A stretch of DNA of 11,449 bases, taken from the IMG/VR virus record IMGVR_UViG_2711768062_000006; one strand, given 5' to 3'. The notes under the pieces are model-generated. The model worked only from the letters and a program-made list of their open reading frames with translations, searched no databases and had not been told where the DNA came from. The translations under genes and the position numbers were made by a program. The stretch comes from a virus (lineage: Duplodnaviria > Heunggongvirae > Uroviricota > Caudoviricetes). Shown piece by piece: positions 3,135 through 10,201 of this stretch; position 1 is the stretch's first letter, and each line of letters opens with the position of its first letter.

Positions 3135-3737
3135 ATGAGCTATTTTCTGCGCAAAAAATGGATGGTAAATTTGTCCGGGTCAGGAAAAATTTTATGGGCG
3201 CTAAACATGAAAAAAGATTCGTATCCTTATTTGATTTGCATGACAGTTTCAGGGCTGATCTTTATTTTCCTTTTCTTCTGGTGGCGGGCAGATATCTACA
3301 GGGTCACGTTTCTTAATCAGAGTATATCCCACTATTACATTCTGTTTAGCATGGGAATAGCTTTTCTGTTATCTCTGTTTTGGGTTAAGAAGGGGATAGT
3401 AAAACAAAGAGGCTGGAAGAGTCTGTCAGCATACCTTAAGGTTTATGCAGGGATGTGCATATTTGCTGGATTTTTTCTGATTATACCCCTTACGACACTA
3501 ACTTATTTTTTGCCTGGAGAGACATCGTCTTATGTTGCACCGTATCGGTATACTTCCGGTAGTTCAAAAAGTTGTTCTGGAGCTGAGGTGGATGACCCCG
3601 ATCTACATGAGAATATTCGCATTTGCTATCCGTATGGCAATTATGAGTACGATAATATTATCTATGTTGAAAAGAAAATTAATATATTAGGTGCGGTAGT
3701 GACATATGCACAGACCGCGCGTGATGATACTGAATGA
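3135..3737 (+). CDS. Unrecognised integral-membrane protein (up to 200 aa): three predicted TM helices plus a ~75-aa Cys-containing C-terminal domain, in an AT-rich insert
   Basis: Long ORF in a region visibly more AT-rich than its flanks. Hydrophobic segments YLICMTVSGLIFIFLFFWW, ISHYYILFSMGIAFLLSLFWV and VYAGMCIFAGFFLIIPLTTLTYFL. Lysine/arginine-rich loops (MKKDS, KKGIVKQRGWKS) suggest N-in topology with the C-terminal domain outside. Start is uncertain: in-frame ATGs at 3135, 3162 and 3207, none with a clear Shine-Dalgarno. It is the only plus-strand gene inside the minus-strand early-left operon. Confidence 0.65.
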   Translation: MSYFLRKKWMVNLSGSGKILWALNMKKDSYPYLICMTVSGLIFIFLFFWWRADIYRVTFLNQSISHYYILFSMGIAFLLSLFWVKKGIVKQRGWKSLSAYLKVYAGMCIFAGFFLIIPLTTLTYFLPGETSSYVAPYRYTSGSSKSCSGAEVDDPDLHENIRICYPYGNYEYDNIIYVEKKINILGAVVTYAQTARDDTE

Positions 3738-3771: not shown

Positions 3772-3795
3772 TCGAGGTAATATAATTTACCTCGA
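3772..3795 (+). terminator. Candidate intrinsic terminator for the membrane-protein gene
   Basis: Perfect 9-bp inverted repeat TCGAGGTAA / TTACCTCGA (3772-3780 and 3787-3795) with 6-nt loop TATAAT, 35 nt after the TGA stop, followed by CTCGTTTGTTCT. Confidence 0.5.
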
Positions 3796-4222: not shown

Positions 4223-4245
4223 ATAAAAAAGGAGCCTGTAGCTCC
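4223..4245 (-). terminator. Candidate intrinsic terminator inside the leftward operon, between the 103-aa ORF and the TraR-like ORF
   Basis: Read on the minus strand: GGAGC-UACAG-GCUCC hairpin (plus 4231-4245) followed by UUUUUUAUUAUU (plus 4219-4230). Confidence 0.5.
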
Positions 4246-4267: not shown

Positions 4268-4579
4268 TCATCGTTCCTTAAAGACGCCGTTTAACATGCC
4301 GATTGCCAGGCTTAAATGAGTCGGTGTGAATCCCATCAGCGTTACCGTTTCGCGGTGCTTCTTCAGTACGCTACGGCAAATGTCATCGACGTTTTTATCC
4401 GGAAACTGCTGTCTGGCTTTTTTGATTTCAGAATTAGCCTGACGGGCAATGCTGCGAAGGGCGTTTTCCTGCTGAGGTGTCATTGAACAAGTCCCATGTC
4501 GGCAAGCATAAGCACACAGAATATGAAGCCCGCTGCCAGAAAAATGCATTCCGTGGTTGTTATACCTGGTCTCTCTCAT
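4268..4579 (-). CDS. Small early-left hypothetical protein, 103 aa, at the lambda orf61 position
   Basis: ATG at 4579-4577. Overlaps the upstream ORF by 20 nt, as I recall for lambda orf61/orf63. It is longer than lambda's 61-aa ORF. Confidence 0.5.
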   Translation of the reverse strand: MRETRYNNHGMHFSGSGLHILCAYACRHGTCSMTPQQENALRSIARQANSEIKKARQQFPDKNVDDICRSVLKKHRETVTLMGFTPTHLSLAIGMLNGVFKER

Positions 4580-4751: not shown

Positions 4752-4906
4752 ACAGCTCCCCGTTTATTATTTATCTCCTCAGCCAGCCGCTGTGCTTTCA
4801 GGGGATTTCGGATAACAGAAAGGCCGGGAAATACCCAGCCTCGCTTCGTAACGGAGTAGACGAAAGTGATCGTGCCTACGCGGATATTATCGTGAGGATG
4901 TTTCAT
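4724..4906 (-). CDS. Small early-left hypothetical protein, 60 aa from the second ATG (lambda orf60a-like)
   Basis: ORF track gives 62 aa from ATG 4912. The ATG at 4906 has a better-spaced GGGGAG and gives 60 aa. The ORF overlaps the 3' end of exo (by 4 nt from the 4906 start). Confidence 0.55.
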
Positions 4907-5583
4907 CGCCATTGCTCCCCAAATACAAAACCAATTTCAGCCAGTGCCTCGTCCATTTTTTCGATGAACTCCGGCACCATCTCGTCAAAACTCGCTATAT
5001 ACTTTTCATTCCGCTCAATCACGACATAATGCAGGCCTTCACGCTTCATACGCGGGTCATAGTTGGCAAAGTACCAGGCATCTTTTCGCGTCACCCACAT
5101 GCTGTACTGCACCTGGGCCATGTAAGCCGACTTTATGGCCTCGAAACCACCGAGCCGGAATTTCATGAAATCCCGGGAGGTAAACGGGCATTTCAGCTCA
5201 AGGCCATTGCCGTCACTGCATAAACCATCGGGAGAGCAGGCGGTGCGCATACTTTCGTCGCGATAGATGATCGGGGATTCAATAACATTTACGCCGGAAG
5301 TGAACTCAAACAGGGTTCTGGCGTCGTTCTCGTACTGTTTTCCCCAGGCCAGCGCTTTAGCGTTAACTTCCGGAGCCACACCGGTGCAAACCTCAGCCAG
5401 CAGGGTGTGGAAGTAGGACATTTTCATGTCAGGCCACTTCTTTCCTGATCGGGGCTTTGCTATCACGTTGTGAACTTCTGAAGCGGTGATGACGCCGAGC
5501 CGTAATTTGTGCCATGCATCATCCCCCTGTTCGACAGCTCTCACGTCGATCCCGGTACGCTGCAGGATAATGTCCGGTGTCAT
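4903..5583 (-). CDS. exo: Lambda exonuclease (Red-alpha), 226 aa
   Basis: [65 protein letters not shown]...FGEQWR matches recalled lambda Exo. Start overlaps the bet stop by 4 nt (ATGA). Confidence 0.97.
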
Positions 5584-6365
5584 GCTGCCACCTTCTGCTC
5601 AGTGGCTTTCTGTTTCAGGAATCCAAGAGCTTTCACTGCTTCGGCCTGTGTCAGTTCTGACGATGCGCGAATGTCGCGGCGAAATATCTGGGAACAGAGC
5701 GGCAATAAGTCGTCATCCCATGTTTTATCCAGGGCGATCAGCAGAGTGTTAATCTCCTGCATGGTTTCATCGTTAACCGGAGTGATGTCGCGTTCCGGCT
5801 GACGTTCTGCAGTGTATGCAGTATTTTCGACAATGCGCTCGGCTTCATCCTTGTCATAGATACCAGCAAATCCGAAGGCCAGACGGGCACACTGAATCAT
5901 GGCTTTATGCCGTAACATCCGTTTGGGATGCGACTGCCACGGTCCGGTGATTTCTCTGCCTTCGCGGGTTTTGAATGGTTCGCGGCGGCATTCATCCATC
6001 CACTCGGTAACGCAGATCGGATGATTGCGGTCCTTGCGGTAAATCCGGCATGTGCAGGATTCGTTGTCCTGTTCAAAGTCCATGCCGTCAAACTGCTGGT
6101 TTTCGTTGATGATGCGGGACCAGCCATCAACGCCCACCACCGGAACGATGCCGTTCTGCTTATCAGGGAAGGCGTAAATTTCTTTCGTCCACGGATTAAG
6201 ACCGTACTGGTTGGCGACGATCAGCAATGCGATGAACTGCGCATCGCTGGCATCACCTTTAAATGCCGTCTGGCGAAGAGTGGTGATCAGTTCCTGTGGG
6301 TCGACAGAATCCATGCCGACTCGTTCAGCCAGCTTCCCAGCCAGCGTTGCGAGTGCTGTACTCAT
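5580..6365 (-). CDS. bet: Lambda Bet (Red-beta single-strand annealing protein), 261 aa
   Basis: [66 protein letters not shown]...EQKVAA matches recalled lambda Bet. Confidence 0.97.
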
Positions 6366-6370
6366 CCGTT

Positions 6371-6667
6371 TTATACCTCTGAATCAATATCAACCTGGTG
6401 GTGAGCAATGGTTTCAACCATGTACCGGATGTGTTCTGCCATGCGCTCCTGAAACTCAACATCGTCATCAAACGCACGGGTAATGGCTTTTTTGCTGGCC
6501 CCGTGGCGTTGCAAATGATCGATGCATAGCGATTCAAACAGGTGCTGGGGCAGGCCTTTTTCCATGTCGTCTGCCAGTTCTGCCTCTTTCTCTTCACGGG
6601 CGATCTGCTGGTAGTGACGCACCCAGCTCTGAGCCTCAAGACGATCCTGAATGTAATAAGCGTTCAT
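6371..6667 (-). CDS. gam: Gam (RecBCD inhibitor), 98-aa short form only
   Basis: [60 protein letters not shown]...[10 protein letters not shown] matches recalled lambda Gam from its internal Met. AGGAG sits 7 nt upstream of the ATG. An in-frame TAA at plus 6722-6724 rules out a lambda-style 138-aa form. Confidence 0.93.
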
Positions 6668-6742: not shown

Positions 6743-6949
6743 TTAGTGATTCAGGCCGTTGCCGCGTCCGTCGAGAAAAACTTCCACGAGCAAGTCACGG
6801 GTATAAGTGCGCTCGATGCCGCGATGCAGATAAAGCCGTCCGCGTAAATTAGCTGATGCAGTCCAGGTACCATCTTTGTGTTTGACCAGCATTCCTGGCA
6901 TGACCGCACCGCGATTAACGGTCTGCGTTCCGTAATGTTGATGAACCAT
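6743..6949 (-). CDS. Hypothetical protein, 68 aa, at the kil position between pL and gam; identity not established
   Basis: ATG at 6949-6947 preceded by AGGAG (plus 6955-6959) and a 5-nt spacer. Protein MVHQHYGTQTVNRGAVMPGMLVKHKDGTWTASANLRGRLYLHRGIERTYTRDLLVEVFLDGRGNGLNH. I could not match it to lambda Kil from memory. Confidence 0.55.
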   Translation of the reverse strand: MVHQHYGTQTVNRGAVMPGMLVKHKDGTWTASANLRGRLYLHRGIERTYTRDLLVEVFLDGRGNGLNH

Positions 6950-7118
6950 AAAAACTCCTGCCCGTAAGCTGGGCTGCTGAACAAATGAGGGGTTGCGCAG
7001 TATCTGGCGGTGGATGGCCGCCGGTTGTCATAACTAAGCCGCCTTGTTGAAGCGACTGAGGTATGAGGTGTTGAGTTGATTTCAGCTGGTCACACCGACG
7101 TTCACGCGTCCGTTTCAC
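6915..7118 (-). CDS. Speculative short N-like ORF, 67 aa from GTG, with an arginine-rich N-terminus (MKRTRERRCDQ)
   Basis: GTG at 7118-7116 with GGGGAG 8 nt upstream. First gene-like frame after the pL-like promoter. N-terminal RTRERR resembles the arginine-rich motif of lambda N (recalled QTRRRERRAEKQAQW). It overlaps the next ORF by 35 nt and is far shorter than known N proteins. Confidence 0.25.
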   Translation of the reverse strand: MKRTRERRCDQLKSTQHLIPQSLQQGGLVMTTGGHPPPDTAQPLICSAAQLTGRSFYGSSTLRNADR

Positions 7119-7224
7119 CCCTCGCACTCCCCGGAGCCTGCTGAAATTCAAGCTGCGGATCTAAGCGGTCATCGCAACGGTGAATCAGGTGGTTGCCGTA
7201 TCGTTGTGTTGTTGCGATGAACTT

Positions 7225-7253
7225 ATTTAAAACTATAGTTGTTTTATCGTCAA
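7225..7253 (-). promoter_or_regulatory. pL-like leftward promoter with embedded operator half-sites
   Basis: On the minus strand: -35 TTGACG (plus 7248-7253), 17-bp spacer, -10 TTAAAT (plus 7225-7230). The surrounding 35 bp is nearly identical to the pR-like module at 8272-8306 and contains GTTGTT/AACAAC inverted repeats and the palindrome AACTATAGTT (7231-7240). Confidence 0.5.
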
Positions 7254-7540: not shown

Positions 7541-8230
7541 CTACCCATGCTTCCTATATGTCTGCGGCATGCTCCCAATAACCTTACCGAAGATGAACAC
7601 CCGGTTCATCTCGTCTTTCTCGATCGGGTCCCACGGTGAGTAGCTTTTGTTATCAGAGATGACCAGCAGCTTATCCTTCATCATTTGCAGGCGCTTTACA
7701 TGGGCTGTGTCGTCGTACAGAAACGCATAGATACCATCACCGTCGAAAGATTTAACAGTGATATCAACGAACAGCAGATCACCTGGTTCGATCGTTCCTG
7801 ACATGCTGTCACCACGCACGTTAATGATGCGGATATTTTCCGCCTTCCTACCATCGAACATGTGACGAGCATCGTCAAACGAGTACTCAACCGAGCGTAG
7901 AACTTCTACAAACTCACGGTTGATGACTCCCGGCCCAGCACTGACTTCTATATCAAGAACGTCAATCTTGAAGTATTTGGAATGGCTGACAGTTGATTGT
8001 ATTGGTTGCACTGTACTGTCTGACATATTTCCAATGCCAGAAGATAACCATTCTGCGCGCACACCCAAAGCGTTCGCGATCTCCACGATTTTAGTTGTTT
8101 GGTTAGCTTTCCCTGTTTCGATTTTCTGAATAGCAGCCTGGCTAACCCCAACCAAATCCCCAAGTGCCTTTTGTGTAAGGCCTCGCGCTAATCTGGCTTC
8201 TTTAAGTCTTTCTGAGAGTGTTGTTTTCAT
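7541..8230 (-). CDS. cI: CI-type prophage repressor, N-terminal HTH plus C-terminal S24 (LexA-like) autopeptidase; 229 aa from the MKTT start
   Basis: MKTTLSERLKEARLARGLTQKALGDLVGVSQAAIQKIETG is an XRE-type HTH. Candidate Ala-Gly cleavage site in EVSAGPG, catalytic Ser in GDSMSGT and Lys in VKRLQ. The ORF track starts at 8296, but that ATG lies inside the operator palindrome and pR. The 8230 start would give a leaderless transcript from the pRM-like promoter. Not lambda cI by sequence. Confidence 0.85.
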   Translation of the reverse strand: MKTTLSERLKEARLARGLTQKALGDLVGVSQAAIQKIETGKANQTTKIVEIANALGVRAEWLSSGIGNMSDSTVQPIQSTVSHSKYFKIDVLDIEVSAGPGVINREFVEVLRSVEYSFDDARHMFDGRKAENIRIINVRGDSMSGTIEPGDLLFVDITVKSFDGDGIYAFLYDDTAHVKRLQMMKDKLLVISDNKSYSPWDPIEKDEMNRVFIFGKVIGSMPQTYRKHG

Positions 8231-8334: not shown

Positions 8335-8565
8335 ATGAACCCAGCAATCAAAACAGCGATCAATATAGTTGGTTCACAAAAGAAATTGGGCGATGCCTGC
8401 GAAGTTTCACAGCAGGCCGTCTATAAGTGGCTTCACAACAAAGCAAAGGTATCCCCTGAACATGTCGGCAGCATTGTTACGGCTACTGGTGGAGTTGTGA
8501 AGGCGTACCAGATTCGCCCGGATCTTCCGAAGTTGTTTCCACACACCGAAAAGAACGCAGCTTAA
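8335..8565 (+). CDS. cro: Cro-like regulator of the YdaS type, 76 aa
   Basis: First rightward gene after pR with a strong GGAGG RBS. Motifs SQ..L...VSQQAVYKW...V.PE....I..ATGG.V.....RPDL fit my recollection of the YdaS-type Cro family. Not lambda Cro. Confidence 0.8.
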   Translation: MNPAIKTAINIVGSQKKLGDACEVSQQAVYKWLHNKAKVSPEHVGSIVTATGGVVKAYQIRPDLPKLFPHTEKNAA

Positions 8566-8577
8566 ATTTCCATTTCA

Positions 8578-8623
8578 CGCTCTTTAACAATAAGCAATCA
8601 ACTTAACAGACTGATTAACAGTC
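8578..8623 (+). promoter_or_regulatory. nutR-like element: boxA-like CGCTCTTTAACAA plus a boxB-like stem-loop GACTG-ATTAA-CAGTC
   Basis: 12 of the 13 nt (GCTCTTTAACAA) match the boxA consensus as I recall it. The stem-loop 18 nt downstream has a 5-bp stem and 5-nt loop, as in lambda boxB, but a different loop sequence. Position just after cro matches lambda nutR. Confidence 0.45.
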
Positions 8624-8646: not shown

Positions 8647-8805
8647 ATGCAACCAATTACATACCAACAGACTAGCGGATTTACCCCGACTGCGGTGATA
8701 AATCGTTCTCAAACAAAACAGGCGCCAGGCCACGAAAAAATCCGTGATGCCGTTCGGCCTGGTCGGCTGCAGATAATCAGGATGTTGTTGCCGCACTCAT
8801 TGTGA
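8647..8805 (+). CDS. Small ORF, 52 aa, with a strong RBS; either a real small protein or the frameshifted 5' part of the following gene
   Basis: AAGGAA (8635-8640) 6 nt before ATG 8647. MQPITYQQTSGFTPTAVINRSQTKQAPGHEKIRDAVRPGRLQIIRMLLPHSL. Its TGA stop (8803-8805) overlaps the GTG start of the next ORF as GTGA. No lambda CII similarity. Confidence 0.4.
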   Translation: MQPITYQQTSGFTPTAVINRSQTKQAPGHEKIRDAVRPGRLQIIRMLLPHSL

Positions 8806-9185
8806 ATGAGTATCGGGAGCTGGGCGGCGGCACCATCGATTTCCCTGATGATGTCAGCCGTGCACGCCAGAAGTTGTTCCGCTTCCTCGATAACAAATTC
8901 GATTCTGAAAAATACCGAAATAACCTGCGTGAACTGACCCCGGCAATTCTGGCGGTACTACCGCTGGAATATCGCGGCCACCTGGTTGAGCAGGATAGCT
9001 TCATGGCTCGGCTGGTTGAAATGGAAAAGGAACTCAGTGAGGCAAAGCAGGCGGTCATTCTCAACGCACCACGCCACCAGAAACTGAAGGAAATGAGTGA
9101 AGGTATTGTGTCGATGTTTCGCGTGGACCCGGATCTGGCTGGTCCATTAATGGCGATGGTTACCACCATGCTGGGGGCAATATGA
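8802..9185 (+). CDS. Hypothetical protein, 127 aa from a GTG start, at the cII position; possibly a YdaT-like CII-equivalent, possibly N-terminally truncated
   Basis: GTG start with no Shine-Dalgarno of its own. The frame is open and coding-like for 18 codons upstream with no start codon. Motifs EYRELGGG and LTPAILAVLP resemble what I recall of E. coli YdaT; this recollection is unverified. Confidence 0.5.
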   Translation: MNEYRELGGGTIDFPDDVSRARQKLFRFLDNKFDSEKYRNNLRELTPAILAVLPLEYRGHLVEQDSFMARLVEMEKELSEAKQAVILNAPRHQKLKEMSEGIVSMFRVDPDLAGPLMAMVTTMLGAI

Positions 9186-9271: not shown

Positions 9272-10201
9272 ATGGCAAACACTGCTGAGATATTCAATTT
9301 TCCAGTGCCGGATGTGGCACAAAAGGAGCCGCGCGTGGCAGATCTCGATGATGGTTATACGCGCATTGCAAATGAGTTGCTGGAAGTTGTAATGCTGGCC
9401 GGATTAACACAGCACCAGCTTCTGGTCTTCCTGGCTGTCATGCGCAAAACATATGGCTTTAATAAAAAACTGGATTGGGTGAGCAACGAGCAACTTTCCG
9501 AGTTAACCGGGATATTGCCGCACAAGTGTTCTGCTGCAAAAAGTGTTCTGGTAAAGCGTGGGATTTTAATTCAGAGCGGGCGGAATATCGGCATCAATAA
9601 TGTGGTCAGTGAATGGTCAACATTACCCGAATCAGGTAAGAAAAATAAAGTTTACCTGAAAGAGGTAAATTTACCTGAATCAGGTAAGAAAAGTTTACCT
9701 AAATCAGGTAAACGCCTTTACCCGAATCAGGTAAACACAAAAGACAAACTAACAAAAGACAATATAAAACCTTTTTCGTCAGAGAATTCTGGCGAATCCT
9801 CTGACCAGCCAGAAAACGATCTTCCTGTGGTGAAACCGGATGCTGCAATTCAGAGCGGCAGCAAGTGGGGGACAGCAGAAGACCTGACCGCCGCAGAGTG
9901 GATGTTTGACATGGTGAAGACCATCGCGCCATCAGCCAGAAAACCGAATTTTGCAGGGTGGGCTAACGATATCCGCCTGATGCGTGAACGTGACGGACGT
10001 AACCACCGCGACATGTGTGTACTGTTCCGCTGGGCATGCCAGGACAACTTCTGGTCCGGTAACGTGCTGAGTCCGGCCAAACTCCGCGACAAGTGGACCC
10101 AGCTCGAAATCAACCGAAACAAGCAACAGGCTGGCGTGACAGCCGGCAAACCAAAACTCGACCTGACGAACACTGACTGGATTTACGGGGTGGAGCTATG
10201 A
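9272..10201 (+). CDS. O: Replication initiator, lambda O-like, 309 aa from the second in-frame ATG; divergent N-terminal domain, lambda-like C-terminal domain
   Basis: GGGAGG precedes ATG 9272 (MANTAEIFNF...), which parallels the lambda O start MTNTAKILNF. The C-terminal ~110 aa (AEDLTAAEWMFDMVKTIAP...TNTDWIYGVEL) match recalled lambda O. The ORF-track start at 9182 gives 339 aa. Overlaps P by 4 nt (ATGA). Confidence 0.85.
   Translation: MANTAEIFNFPVPDVAQKEPRVADLDDGYTRIANELLEVVMLAGLTQHQLLVFLAVMRKTYGFNKKLDWVSNEQLSELTGILPHKCSAAKSVLVKRGILIQSGRNIGINNVVSEWSTLPESGKKNKVYLKEVNLPESGKKSLPKSGKRLYPNQVNTKDKLTKDNIKPFSSENSGESSDQPENDLPVVKPDAAIQSGSKWGTAEDLTAAEWMFDMVKTIAPSARKPNFAGWANDIRLMRERDGRNHRDMCVLFRWACQDNFWSGNVLSPAKLRDKWTQLEINRNKQQAGVTAGKPKLDLTNTDWIYGVEL
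9623..9734. repeat. Replication-origin iterons: five 17-bp palindromic repeats TTACC-N7-GGTAA inside the O gene
   Basis: Copies at 9623-9639, 9652-9668, 9671-9687, 9695-9711 and 9718-9734, followed by an A-rich tract (ACACAAAAGACAAACTAACAAAAGACAATATAAAAC). They encode the peptide repeat LPESGKK/LPKSGK in O. Architecture parallels the lambda origin, which lies inside O. Confidence 0.8.

What the first reader, a model, noticed from the sequence alone, without database searches (positions are those of the whole stretch)
6915..7220. No recognisable N, cIII or nutL after the leftward promoter; a short ORF with an N-like arginine-rich N-terminus is the only candidate
Only about 270 bp separate the pL-like promoter (7225-7253) from the 68-aa ORF at the kil position. 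Lambda has roughly 1.5 kb here carrying N, sieB, ral, ea10 and cIII (from memory). Yet the leftward operon contains intrinsic terminators (4223-4245, 2711-2732) and a nutR-like boxA/boxB sits after cro, which implies an antitermination factor. The only candidate is a 67-aa GTG-initiated ORF whose N-terminus MKRTRERRCDQLKSTQ resembles the arginine-rich RNA-binding motif of N proteins. I found no convincing boxA/boxB between pL and this ORF; the nearest is a weak CTGATTCACCG segment. This may be a miniature or decayed N, or a deletion may have removed the N region.
Basis: partly seen in the sequence, partly recalled or inferred. Interest (0 to 1): 0.6.

Follow-up and report, generated by a model that had tools for sequence, protein, structure and literature searches.

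The report
N-less phage leader with conserved RNA
The stretch between this prophage's leftward early promoter and its kil gene is a non-coding transcript leader, not a shrunken N gene; it belongs to a very common E. coli phage lineage with no N and no known substitute, and it carries a conserved folded RNA of unknown function.

Summary
Only about 270 nt separate pL (TTGACG-17-TTAAAT, 7253-7225, start near 7218) from kil (6949-6743, phrog_294), and there is no N, cIII or nutL.

The interpretation mostly fails. The arginine-rich ORF (7151/7118-6915) matches no protein family and no N, Nun or gp24. It carries an in-frame TAG or a frameshift in 23 of 47 related loci. The "boxB" after cro is a 12-nt duplication missing from the closest relatives.

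The layout is not decay of this prophage. The same leader occurs in at least 16 sequenced phage genomes and in 2231 of 5426 complete E. coli genomes. Across immunity types, homology starts at the transcript start.

Nt 7065-7006 form a two-hairpin RNA. HP1 covaries (8 pairs changed on both sides; 93.7% of cells paired). HP2, GGCGG-CCAUCCA-CCGCC, is nearly invariant. The motif is absent from Rfam and occurs in Escherichia, Klebsiella, Enterobacter and Citrobacter phages.

In the other phages the RNA abuts an intrinsic terminator, downstream of a put RNA or a boxA. Here that whole early block is replaced by 150 nt of lineage-specific leader.

A put covariance model finds nothing. How, or whether, this lineage antiterminates remains open.

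The parts
7225..7253 (-). pL promoter: TTGACG (7253-7248), 17-nt spacer, TTAAAT (7230-7225), overlapped by OL operators. Predicted start is A7218.
   Evidence: Read from the sequence. Operator repeats are shared with pR/OR (I2 and I22). Homology with phages of other immunity begins at 7217/7218 in 15 of 32 distinct leader variants.
6950..7218 (-). Non-coding pL leader, i.e. the 5' UTR of kil (269 nt).
   Evidence: It is 94-96% identical in 16 phage genomes. It is present in 2231 of 5426 complete E. coli genomes, with nothing annotated under the match in the 60 rows listed. Non-triplet indels and stop codons occur among relatives.
7200..7218 (-). 5'-terminal hairpin: stem AUCG/CGAU with a CA-rich loop. 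Nt 7214-7203 (CAACAACACAAC) are perfectly complementary to GcvB nt 72-83.
   Evidence: Folding. The same position and shape occur at the start of the pL leaders of HK639, HK225 and KO-TP1. A GcvB complement of 12 nt or more arose in 5 of 3000 shuffles, and the 12-mer is kept in 30 of 32 leader variants.
7066..7199 (-). Lineage-specific part of the leader, found only in the N-less E. coli phage group. Function unknown.
   Evidence: No similarity outside the group. No put match. Folding energy is ordinary (z -0.2). No covariation, because divergence is too low.
7029..7065 (-). HP1 of the conserved RNA cassette. A basal CAUA/UAUG helix buries the AUG at 7031-7029. Above it sits a variable, covarying stem with loop UUYANNGAG.
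   Evidence: Eight pairs changed on both sides and 93.7% of cells paired, against 32-49% when the partners are slid; 0 of 500 shuffles reach the covariation score. The 60-nt element has MFE -21.5 kcal/mol, z -3.98.
7006..7028 (-). Invariant linker ACAACC (7028-7023) and HP2, GGCGG-CCAUCCA-CCGCC (7022-7006).
   Evidence: Nearly invariant in 157 matches from four or more genera. Three of the four stem variants are G.U-compatible (CCGTC x2, CTGCC), the fourth (CCGAC) breaks a pair, and all change the Pro-Pro-Pro codons. Covariance model R2 scores 83.8 bits, with a single copy on this strand.
6950..7005 (-). 3' part of the cassette: a mosaic spacer (6975-7005, carrying an alternative allele at 6985-7005), HP3 GCCC-AGCUUAC-GGGC (6974-6960), SD AGGAG (6959-6955).
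   Evidence: The window's allele AGATACTGCGCAACCCC recurs in unrelated contexts such as L009, L023 and L068. HP3 sits 1-6 nt before the SD, with stems GCC/GGC, GCCC/GGGC, GCGC/GCGC and GCCGA/UCGGC in different phages.
6915..7151 (-). Spurious ORF (78 aa from TTG 7151; 67 aa from GTG 7118).
   Evidence: No family hit. No N-like tblastn hit. The frame is broken in 23 of 47 related loci.
6743..6949 (-). kil (KilR-type FtsZ inhibitor, 68 aa), the first gene of the left operon.
   Evidence: phrog_294, E 1.3e-37, covering profile positions 13-80 of 83.
8578..8623 (+). rrn-type boxA CGCTCTTTAACAA (8578-8590), followed by a hairpin GACTG-ATTAA-CAGTC (8609-8623) created by a 12-nt duplication.
   Evidence: Exact boxA match. 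The duplication is absent from PhiR34_1 and PhiR47_2, and the boxA is absent from Perceval.

Best explanation
The interval 6950-7218 is a non-coding 5' leader of the pL transcript. It belongs to a naturally N-less and put-less lineage of lambda-like phages (Perceval, 4A7, PhiR34_1 and related E. coli prophages). The arginine-rich ORF is a chance reading frame.

The leader has three parts:
1. A 5'-terminal hairpin, also found at the start of pL leaders in other lambdoid phages.
2. About 130 nt of lineage-specific sequence.
3. A conserved structured RNA cassette (HP1, invariant linker, invariant HP2, spacer, HP3, SD) that runs into the first gene, here kil.

In other enterobacterial lambdoid phages the same cassette opens the delayed-early left operon, directly after the tL1-type terminator. 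In this lineage the upstream block (put or boxA/nut element, immediate-early genes, terminator) is absent as a unit. So kil-gam-bet-exo are transcribed straight from pL, with no antitermination checkpoint in front of them.

Inferred, not shown: the cassette acts in cis on the RNA to set expression of the toxic first gene(s). I think HP2 plus its linker is most likely the binding site of a trans-acting factor common to all these hosts, because its loop and flanks are fixed while HP1 keeps only its shape.
For: The ORF is not a gene.

The leader is conserved from +1 across immunity types. It is widespread: 16 phage genomes and 2231 of 5426 E. coli genomes, with nothing annotated under the match in the 60 rows listed.

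No other leftward ORF in the window is an N homologue, and Perceval's annotation lists no N.

The RNA sense is the minus strand. G.U pairs in HP1 and the G.U-compatible HP2 variants would be A.C mismatches on the other strand. HP1 covaries strongly, and the element is unusually stable (z -3.98).

Context of the cassette in 142 informative distinct loci:
- 36 have the window-type leader, none with an abutting terminator.
- 32 have put upstream.
- 43 have a boxA upstream.
- 31 have neither.
- 101 of the 106 non-window loci have an intrinsic terminator abutting CATACC.

The first gene after the cassette varies while the UTR is kept. A kil homologue follows within 50-1150 nt in 119 of 156 loci.
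Against: Nothing tested here shows what the cassette does. Its linker and HP2 conservation could reflect recent horizontal spread rather than selection, and the search patterns fixed parts of the core.

Intrinsic terminators remain between exo and xis/int. Some way past them may therefore still be needed, and it is unaccounted for.

The lineage-specific 130 nt is conserved for no reason I could identify.
Confidence: 0.6

Rival explanations
1. The ORF at 7151/7118-6915 encodes a miniature N-like antiterminator. Its arginine-rich N-terminus would bind an RNA hairpin in the early transcripts.
For: The N-terminal KRTRERR stretch is arginine-rich. An exact boxA lies after cro. Terminators lie in the left operon.
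Against: No hit in Pfam or PHROGs at E<=1. tblastn at E<=10 finds no N, Nun or gp24. An in-frame TAG occurs in the commonest relatives, and 5-nt and 1-nt insertions in others: 23 of 47 loci are broken. Its reading frame relative to kil differs between alleles. The pL leader has no boxA or boxB. The boxB after cro is a private duplication.
Confidence: 0.03
2. The lineage-specific leader (7218-7066), alone or with the cassette, is a new cis-acting antiterminator RNA. It would do the job of HK022 put without being related to it, and would carry RNA polymerase through the terminators upstream of xis/int.
For: It occupies the position of putL. It is conserved from +1 across immunity types. It is present exactly in the phages that lack both put and boxA. 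Terminators remain downstream. Most single-sided changes in the predicted helices are C->U opposite G.
Against: No match to a put covariance model (best hits 3.3-8.5 bits, none in the leader), and none to put sequences. Folding energy is ordinary (z -0.2). There is no covariation. No second copy exists in the right operon.
Confidence: 0.2
3. The cassette is a leader-peptide device. The short ORF starting at AUG 7031 (MTTGGHPPP...) is translated. Ribosomes stalling on Pro-Pro-Pro would melt HP2 and so control termination or downstream translation, in an EF-P-sensitive way.
For: The AUG is invariant. A GAG(G) sits in the HP1 loop 10-12 nt upstream. Codons 4-9 coincide with HP2. In a minority of phages HP2 is followed by a T-run and is annotated as a terminator in HK639.
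Against: Natural variants change the peptide: Thr3 to Ile or Asn, and PPP to PPS, PLP or PPT. Three of the four HP2 stem variants nonetheless keep the pairing through G.U. The peptide's length and tail are unconstrained, from 16 to about 200 aa. The AUG is paired in the HP1 base. The window has no U-tract after HP2.
Confidence: 0.1
4. HP2 is simply a weak terminator or pause hairpin, and the rest of the conserved block is a recombination linker between phage modules with no RNA function.
For: HK639's record calls HP2 plus its T-run a terminator. The region is a mosaic junction with several alternative alleles.
Against: Most copies, including the window's, have no U-tract. HP1 shows eight compensatory pairs. 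A terminator would not need an invariant loop and linker.
Confidence: 0.07

Closest known systems
Lambda N / nutL early-left region (pL-nutL-N-tL1)
   Same: The position directly downstream of pL in a lambda-type immunity region. The downstream genes kil-gam-bet-exo-xis-int are shared. An rrn/nut-type boxA is present after cro.
   Different: There is no N-family protein, no boxA or boxB in the pL leader, and no tL1 terminator before kil. The boxB-like hairpin after cro is a non-conserved duplication.
HK022 / HK639 put antiterminator RNAs
   Same: An N-less lambdoid phage with a conserved non-coding leader starting at the pL transcript start. The 5'-terminal hairpin is shared with the HK639 leader.
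   Different: No sequence or covariance-model match to put. No right-operon copy. HK639 carries put and the HP1-HP2 cassette, 0.5-1.8 kb apart, so the cassette is not a put.
KilS sRNA / kilR 5' UTR of the Rac prophage (PMC8175672)
   Same: A regulatory RNA region directly upstream of a KilR-type kil gene, on the same strand.
   Different: No sequence similarity (alignment score at the shuffled mean). KilS ends in its own terminator and has its own promoter. The cassette here has neither.
AgvB anti-sRNA of EHEC prophages (PMC4104026)
   Same: A prophage transcript with a 5' CA-rich stretch containing CACAACA, the GcvB R1 target consensus. Here the perfect complement is 12 nt.
   Different: AgvB is a 51-60-nt sRNA encoded downstream of pR'. 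Here the motif sits in the loop of the first hairpin of the repressed pL mRNA. No interaction has been tested.

Membership tests
Lambda N-type antitermination (N protein plus nut site) | An arginine-rich-motif protein of the N family encoded just downstream of pL | tested here: not met
   The 78-aa ORF has no Pfam or PHROG hit at E<=1 and no N, Nun or gp24 hit by tblastn at E<=10. Its frame is broken in 23 of 47 relatives. No other leftward ORF is N.
Lambda N-type antitermination (N protein plus nut site) | nutL: a boxA followed by a boxB hairpin in the pL leader | tested here: not met
   No boxA match with up to 3 mismatches in 6950-7218. The folds show no short boxB-type hairpin after a boxA.
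Lambda N-type antitermination (N protein plus nut site) | nutR: boxA plus a conserved boxB after cro | tested here: not met
   The boxA is exact at 8578-8590. The hairpin at 8609-8623 arises from a 12-nt duplication that is absent from PhiR34_1 and PhiR47_2. Neither element is present in Perceval.
HK022-type put RNA | Sequence and structure match to putL/putR | tested here: not met
   Covariance model R1, built from 21 put sequences, has its best window hit at 8.5 bits (E 0.48) at 4432-4458 on the plus strand, with nothing in the leader. Local alignments score at the shuffled mean.
HK022-type put RNA | Related copies in both early operons (putL and putR) | tested here: not met
   The only similarity between the leader and the right operon is a 15-mer at the end of cro. 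HK639 is annotated with putL only, so this feature is not universal.
HK022-type put RNA | Action through the beta' zinc-binding domain; read-through of downstream terminators | not testable with these tools
   This needs reporter assays in rpoC zinc-domain mutants.
Kil (phrog_294, KilR type) | Full-length profile match for the ORF at 6949-6743 | tested here: met
   E 1.3e-37 over profile positions 13-80 of 83. The 139-aa 'Kil' annotated in Perceval matches only from residue 63.
Any Rfam 15 family | A covariance-model match in 6950-7218 | tested here: not met
   cmscan of the whole window at E<=1 gives one unrelated weak hit, at 9670-9811.
Intrinsic terminator (for HP2) | A GC-rich hairpin followed directly by a U-tract | tested here: not met
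   HP2 is followed by AGAUACUGCG in the window, and the site is not listed by the terminator scan. A T-run follows HP2 only in a minority of other phages.
Leader-peptide attenuator | A conserved short ORF whose peptide or codons are under selection | tested here: inconclusive
   The AUG is invariant, but residue 3 and the PPP motif vary, and three of the four HP2 stem variants keep the pairing. The tail length is unconstrained.
GcvB target or sponge (AgvB-like) | An accessible CA-rich stretch complementary to the GcvB R1 region | tested here: met
   A 12-nt perfect complement to GcvB nt 72-83 at 7214-7203, in a hairpin loop. Matches of 12 nt or more arose in 5 of 3000 shuffles. Hfq dependence and any regulatory effect are not testable here.

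The most novel reading that the evidence does not exclude
A phage lineage present in about 40% of complete E. coli genomes runs its early-left operon with no N and no put. It could rely on one or both of two uncharacterised RNAs. One is a lineage-specific pL leader acting as a new kind of cis-acting antiterminator or anti-Rho element. The other is the HP1-HP2-HP3 cassette, a widespread enterobacterial phage riboregulator read by a host factor, which gates expression of toxic delayed-early genes such as kil.
Probability: 0.2. Interest if true: 0.8.

Novelty: new variant of a known kind. Interest (0 to 1): 0.5.

Why it matters
Lambda's N-nut switch and HK022's put RNA are the two textbook ways in which lambdoid phages carry early transcription past terminators. 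This leader shows that a very common E. coli prophage lineage has neither, and it gives the exact boundaries of what it has instead. That lineage includes sequenced phages such as Perceval, 4A7 and PhiR34_1. The open question of how these phages time early-left expression and reach xis/int therefore becomes directly testable with a 270-nt fragment.

The work also defines a covarying RNA motif upstream of kil-type genes in several enterobacterial genera. The motif is not in Rfam. Kil-type toxins are known from the Rac prophage to matter for host physiology.

Practically, it corrects annotation. The 128-139-aa 'Kil' proteins in several deposited phage genomes are over-extended into this leader.

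Tried and rejected
- **Rfam scan of the window.** Nothing in the region.
- **AgvB or another EHEC anti-sRNA at this site.** AgvB lies downstream of pR', not here. I tried to place the leader among the EcOnc sRNAs of strain Sakai, but the region I fetched was the late region of Sp9, so I dropped it.
- **Homology with Rac KilS.** Only a 9-mer is shared, at the chance level.
- **HK022 or HK639 put.** There is a faint resemblance, GAAACGGACGCG..CGUCGG against GAACGGCGCG..CGUCGG, but no covariance-model or alignment support.
- **An RfaH ops site, sigma-70 or sigma-32 promoters, or a CsrA site on the opposite strand within the cassette.** I considered these by eye and rejected them. The matching bases fall in variable positions, or the G.U pairs fix the RNA sense to the minus strand.
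- **RNAduplex of the whole leader against GcvB.** Meaningless for long sequences. I replaced it with an exact-match test.
- **King et al. 2011 on HK639.** The paper could not be read.
- **Literature search for the HP2 sequence.** No paper.

Full report
**Setting.** The window is a lambda-like prophage at the lambda attachment site. On the minus strand, in order, lie:
- a pectinesterase gene at the left end;
- int (1419-2489) and xis;
- small early-left ORFs and a DksA/TraR-like gene;
- exo (4903-5583), bet (5580-6365) and gam (6371-6667);
- a 68-aa Kil (6743-6949);
- a CI-type repressor (7541-8230).

On the plus strand lie cro (8335-8565), a 180-aa CII-like gene, then O, P and ren. The 276 bp queried around the finding (6950-7225) is 100% identical to E. 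coli WP5-S17-ESBL-11.

**The observation.** A leftward promoter, TTGACG-17-TTAAAT, lies at 7253-7225. It mirrors pR and shares operator sequence with it. The predicted start is A7218. The next gene is kil, whose ATG is at 6949, so the leader is 269 nt. It contains no N, no cIII, and no boxA even at 3 mismatches. Terminator-like sites on the minus strand at 4247-4229, 2931-2912 and 2735-2716 are confirmed.

**The ORF is not a gene.**
- It matches nothing in Pfam or PHROGs at E<=1.
- tblastn against 50,697 phage records at E<=10 returns only the same locus in relatives, plus noise. No N, Nun or gp24 appears.
- I aligned the homologous leaders from 47 loci, which gave 32 distinct sequences. The frame carries CAG->TAG in the commonest variants (19 loci), a 5-nt insertion in three loci and a 1-nt insertion in one.
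- The frame relation to kil also differs between alleles. Most relatives carry a different 20-nt allele at 6985-7005 that is 2 nt longer. It puts the upstream frame in phase with kil. This is why several deposited genomes annotate a 128-139-aa 'Kil'. The Kil profile matches that product only from residue 63.

**The nutR argument.** The boxA after cro is exact (8578-8590). The hairpin GACTG-ATTAA-CAGTC (8609-8623) exists only because of a 12-nt duplication. PhiR34_1 and PhiR47_2 have the same cro and boxA but lack the duplication. Perceval shares the pL leader but has another cro, and it has neither the boxA nor the hairpin. So nothing here points to an N-boxB system. An rrn-type boxA could still act with host Nus factors alone; that rests on general knowledge and was not tested.

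**Not a damaged prophage.**
- The leader is 94-96% identical in 16 phage genomes. They include Perceval, 4A7, Lambda_4C10, 1W, 3W, Turner and several PhiR phages.
- It is present in 2231 of 5426 complete E. coli genomes, and 2209 of them hold at least 80% of the query. Nothing is annotated under the match in the 60 records listed.
- Perceval's annotation lists Q but no N.
- In 15 of 32 distinct leader variants the flanking immunity region is different, and homology begins at 7217/7218, the predicted transcript start.

The unit of conservation is therefore the transcript.

**What is in the leader.**

First, nt 7218-7200 form a small hairpin with a CA-rich loop. A hairpin of the same shape and position opens the pL leaders of HK639, HK225 and KO-TP1.

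Second, nt 7199-7066 occur only in this lineage. They fold no better than shuffled sequence (z -0.2). They are too uniform to show covariation (0 compensatory pairs).

Third, nt 7065-7006 match a 60-nt element that blastn found in HK225 and in Enterobacter and Klebsiella phages. They also gave 18 species-representative genomes of Citrobacter, Enterobacter, Scandinavium, Huaxiibacter and Trabulsiella.

**Structure of the 60-nt element.**
- HP1 (7065-7029) has a basal CAUA/UAUG helix and a variable upper stem.
- On 50 distinct sequences, 8 of its 14 pairs change on both sides and 93.7% of cells pair. With slid partners the figure is 32-49%. No shuffle out of 500 reaches the covariation score.
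- The linker ACAACC is fixed.
- HP2, GGCGG-CCAUCCA-CCGCC (7022-7006), is nearly invariant. Three of its four stem variants (CCGTC x2, CTGCC) keep a G.U pair and one (CCGAC) breaks a pair. All four change the Pro-Pro-Pro codons of the embedded short ORF.
- These G.U pairs fix the functional strand as the pL sense.
- The element folds exactly as modelled: -21.5 kcal/mol, z -3.98.
- Covariance model R2 scores it at 83.8 bits and finds no second copy on this strand.
- Rfam has no match.

**Downstream of HP2.** A mosaic but recognisable stretch runs to a short hairpin, HP3, placed 1-6 nt before the Shine-Dalgarno sequence. In the window HP3 is GCCC-AGCUUAC-GGGC (6974-6960). Elsewhere its stems are GCC/GGC, GCGC/GCGC or GCCGA/UCGGC. 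The same UTR is joined to several unrelated first genes. A kil homologue follows within 50-1150 nt in 119 of 156 loci.

**Context elsewhere.** classified 142 informative distinct loci:

| Upstream of the cassette | Loci | Intrinsic terminator abutting CATACC |
|---|---|---|
| Window-type leader | 36 | 0 |
| put RNA, 0.5-1.8 kb upstream | 32 | 31 |
| rrn-like boxA, 0.24-1.3 kb upstream | 43 | 41 |
| Neither found | 31 | 29 |

HK639 is the experimentally studied put phage. It has the cassette after its tL terminator, and its GenBank record calls HP2 plus a T-run a second terminator.

The cassette is therefore not the antiterminator of those phages. It marks the start of the delayed-early left operon. 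In the window's lineage the whole immediate-early block and its terminator are missing, with the junction at 7065/7066, and 150 nt of unrelated leader stands in their place.

**Antitermination.** A covariance model built from 21 put sequences finds nothing in the leader. Local alignments to HK022 putL and putR are at the chance level. No leader-like copy lies in the right operon. The one exception is a 15-mer, CGCAGCTT(G/A)AATTTC, at the end of this cro allele.

Three possibilities remain, and I cannot separate them by computation:
- the lineage-specific leader is a new RNA antiterminator;
- a factor is encoded outside the window;
- pL transcription stops at 4229, and xis/int are expressed in some other way.

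**Side observation.** Nt 7214-7203, in the loop of the 5' hairpin, are a perfect 12-nt complement of GcvB nt 72-83. A complement of 12 nt or more arose in 5 of 3000 shuffles, and the 12-mer is kept in 30 of 32 leader variants. The stretch contains CACAACA, the GcvB target consensus used by the prophage anti-sRNA AgvB (PMC4104026).

**Verdict.** The absence of N is real and characteristic of the lineage. The mini-N reading is refuted. The region is a non-coding leader that carries an uncharacterised, covarying RNA cassette.

Noticed in passing
window 8647-9185 (+), near 8757: The 180-aa CII-like gene (phrog_163 type in relatives) is split by a 1-nt deletion relative to PhiR34_1. The result is a 52-aa ORF and a 127-aa ORF. 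This is either a pseudogene or a sequencing error in this prophage.
   Followed up: partly
window 8610-8621 (+): A 12-nt tandem-like duplication (TTAACAG ACTGA TTAACAG) creates the boxB-like hairpin after the boxA. It is absent from the closest relatives.
   Followed up: yes
window 7214-7203 (-): A 12-nt perfect complement to the GcvB R1 region sits in the loop of the first hairpin of the pL transcript. It is conserved in 30 of 32 leader variants. It could be a GcvB target or sponge site.
   Followed up: partly
window 7157-7143 (-) and 8556-8570 (+): Both early transcripts contain CGCAGCUU(G/A)AAUUUC: in the pL leader, and across the cro stop codon. The motif is kept in PhiR34_1 and PhiR47_2 but is absent after the different cro of Perceval.
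   Followed up: partly
L006 2794-3213; L002 3144-3530: The deposited 'Kil' proteins of 128-139 aa in Perceval, PhiR47_2 and other phages are extended into the non-coding leader. The Kil profile starts at the ATG that corresponds to window 6949.
   Followed up: yes
L004 4020-4330 (-); L005 3270-3730 (-): HK225 and Klebsiella phage KO-TP1 share a long, highly conserved pL leader. It has the same 5' hairpin, a boxA (TGCTTTTTAACAA) and about 150 nt of GC-rich sequence ahead of small, unrelated first ORFs. No N homologue was identified there.
   Followed up: no
L130 17911-17970 (+): HK639's record annotates an 'M3-like RNA' after its CII-like gene in the right operon. The window has no equivalent, because its CII-like and O genes overlap.
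   Followed up: no
window 3135-3737 (+), with 2943-2962 and 3772-3795: A 200-aa membrane-type ORF (phrog_1416) lies on the opposite strand inside the left operon, bracketed by terminator-like hairpins. It looks like a moron. It may explain some of the terminators that were taken to imply antitermination.
   Followed up: no
window 9623-9736 (+): A cluster of inverted and direct repeats of about 17-23 nt (TTACCTGAATCAGGTAA and variants) lies inside the O gene. This fits replication-origin iterons.
   Followed up: no
L129 7406-7503 (-): The Rac prophage of K-12 has an annotated sRNA, KilS, in the kilR 5' UTR. It sits in the analogous place but is unrelated in sequence to the cassette described here.
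   Followed up: yes
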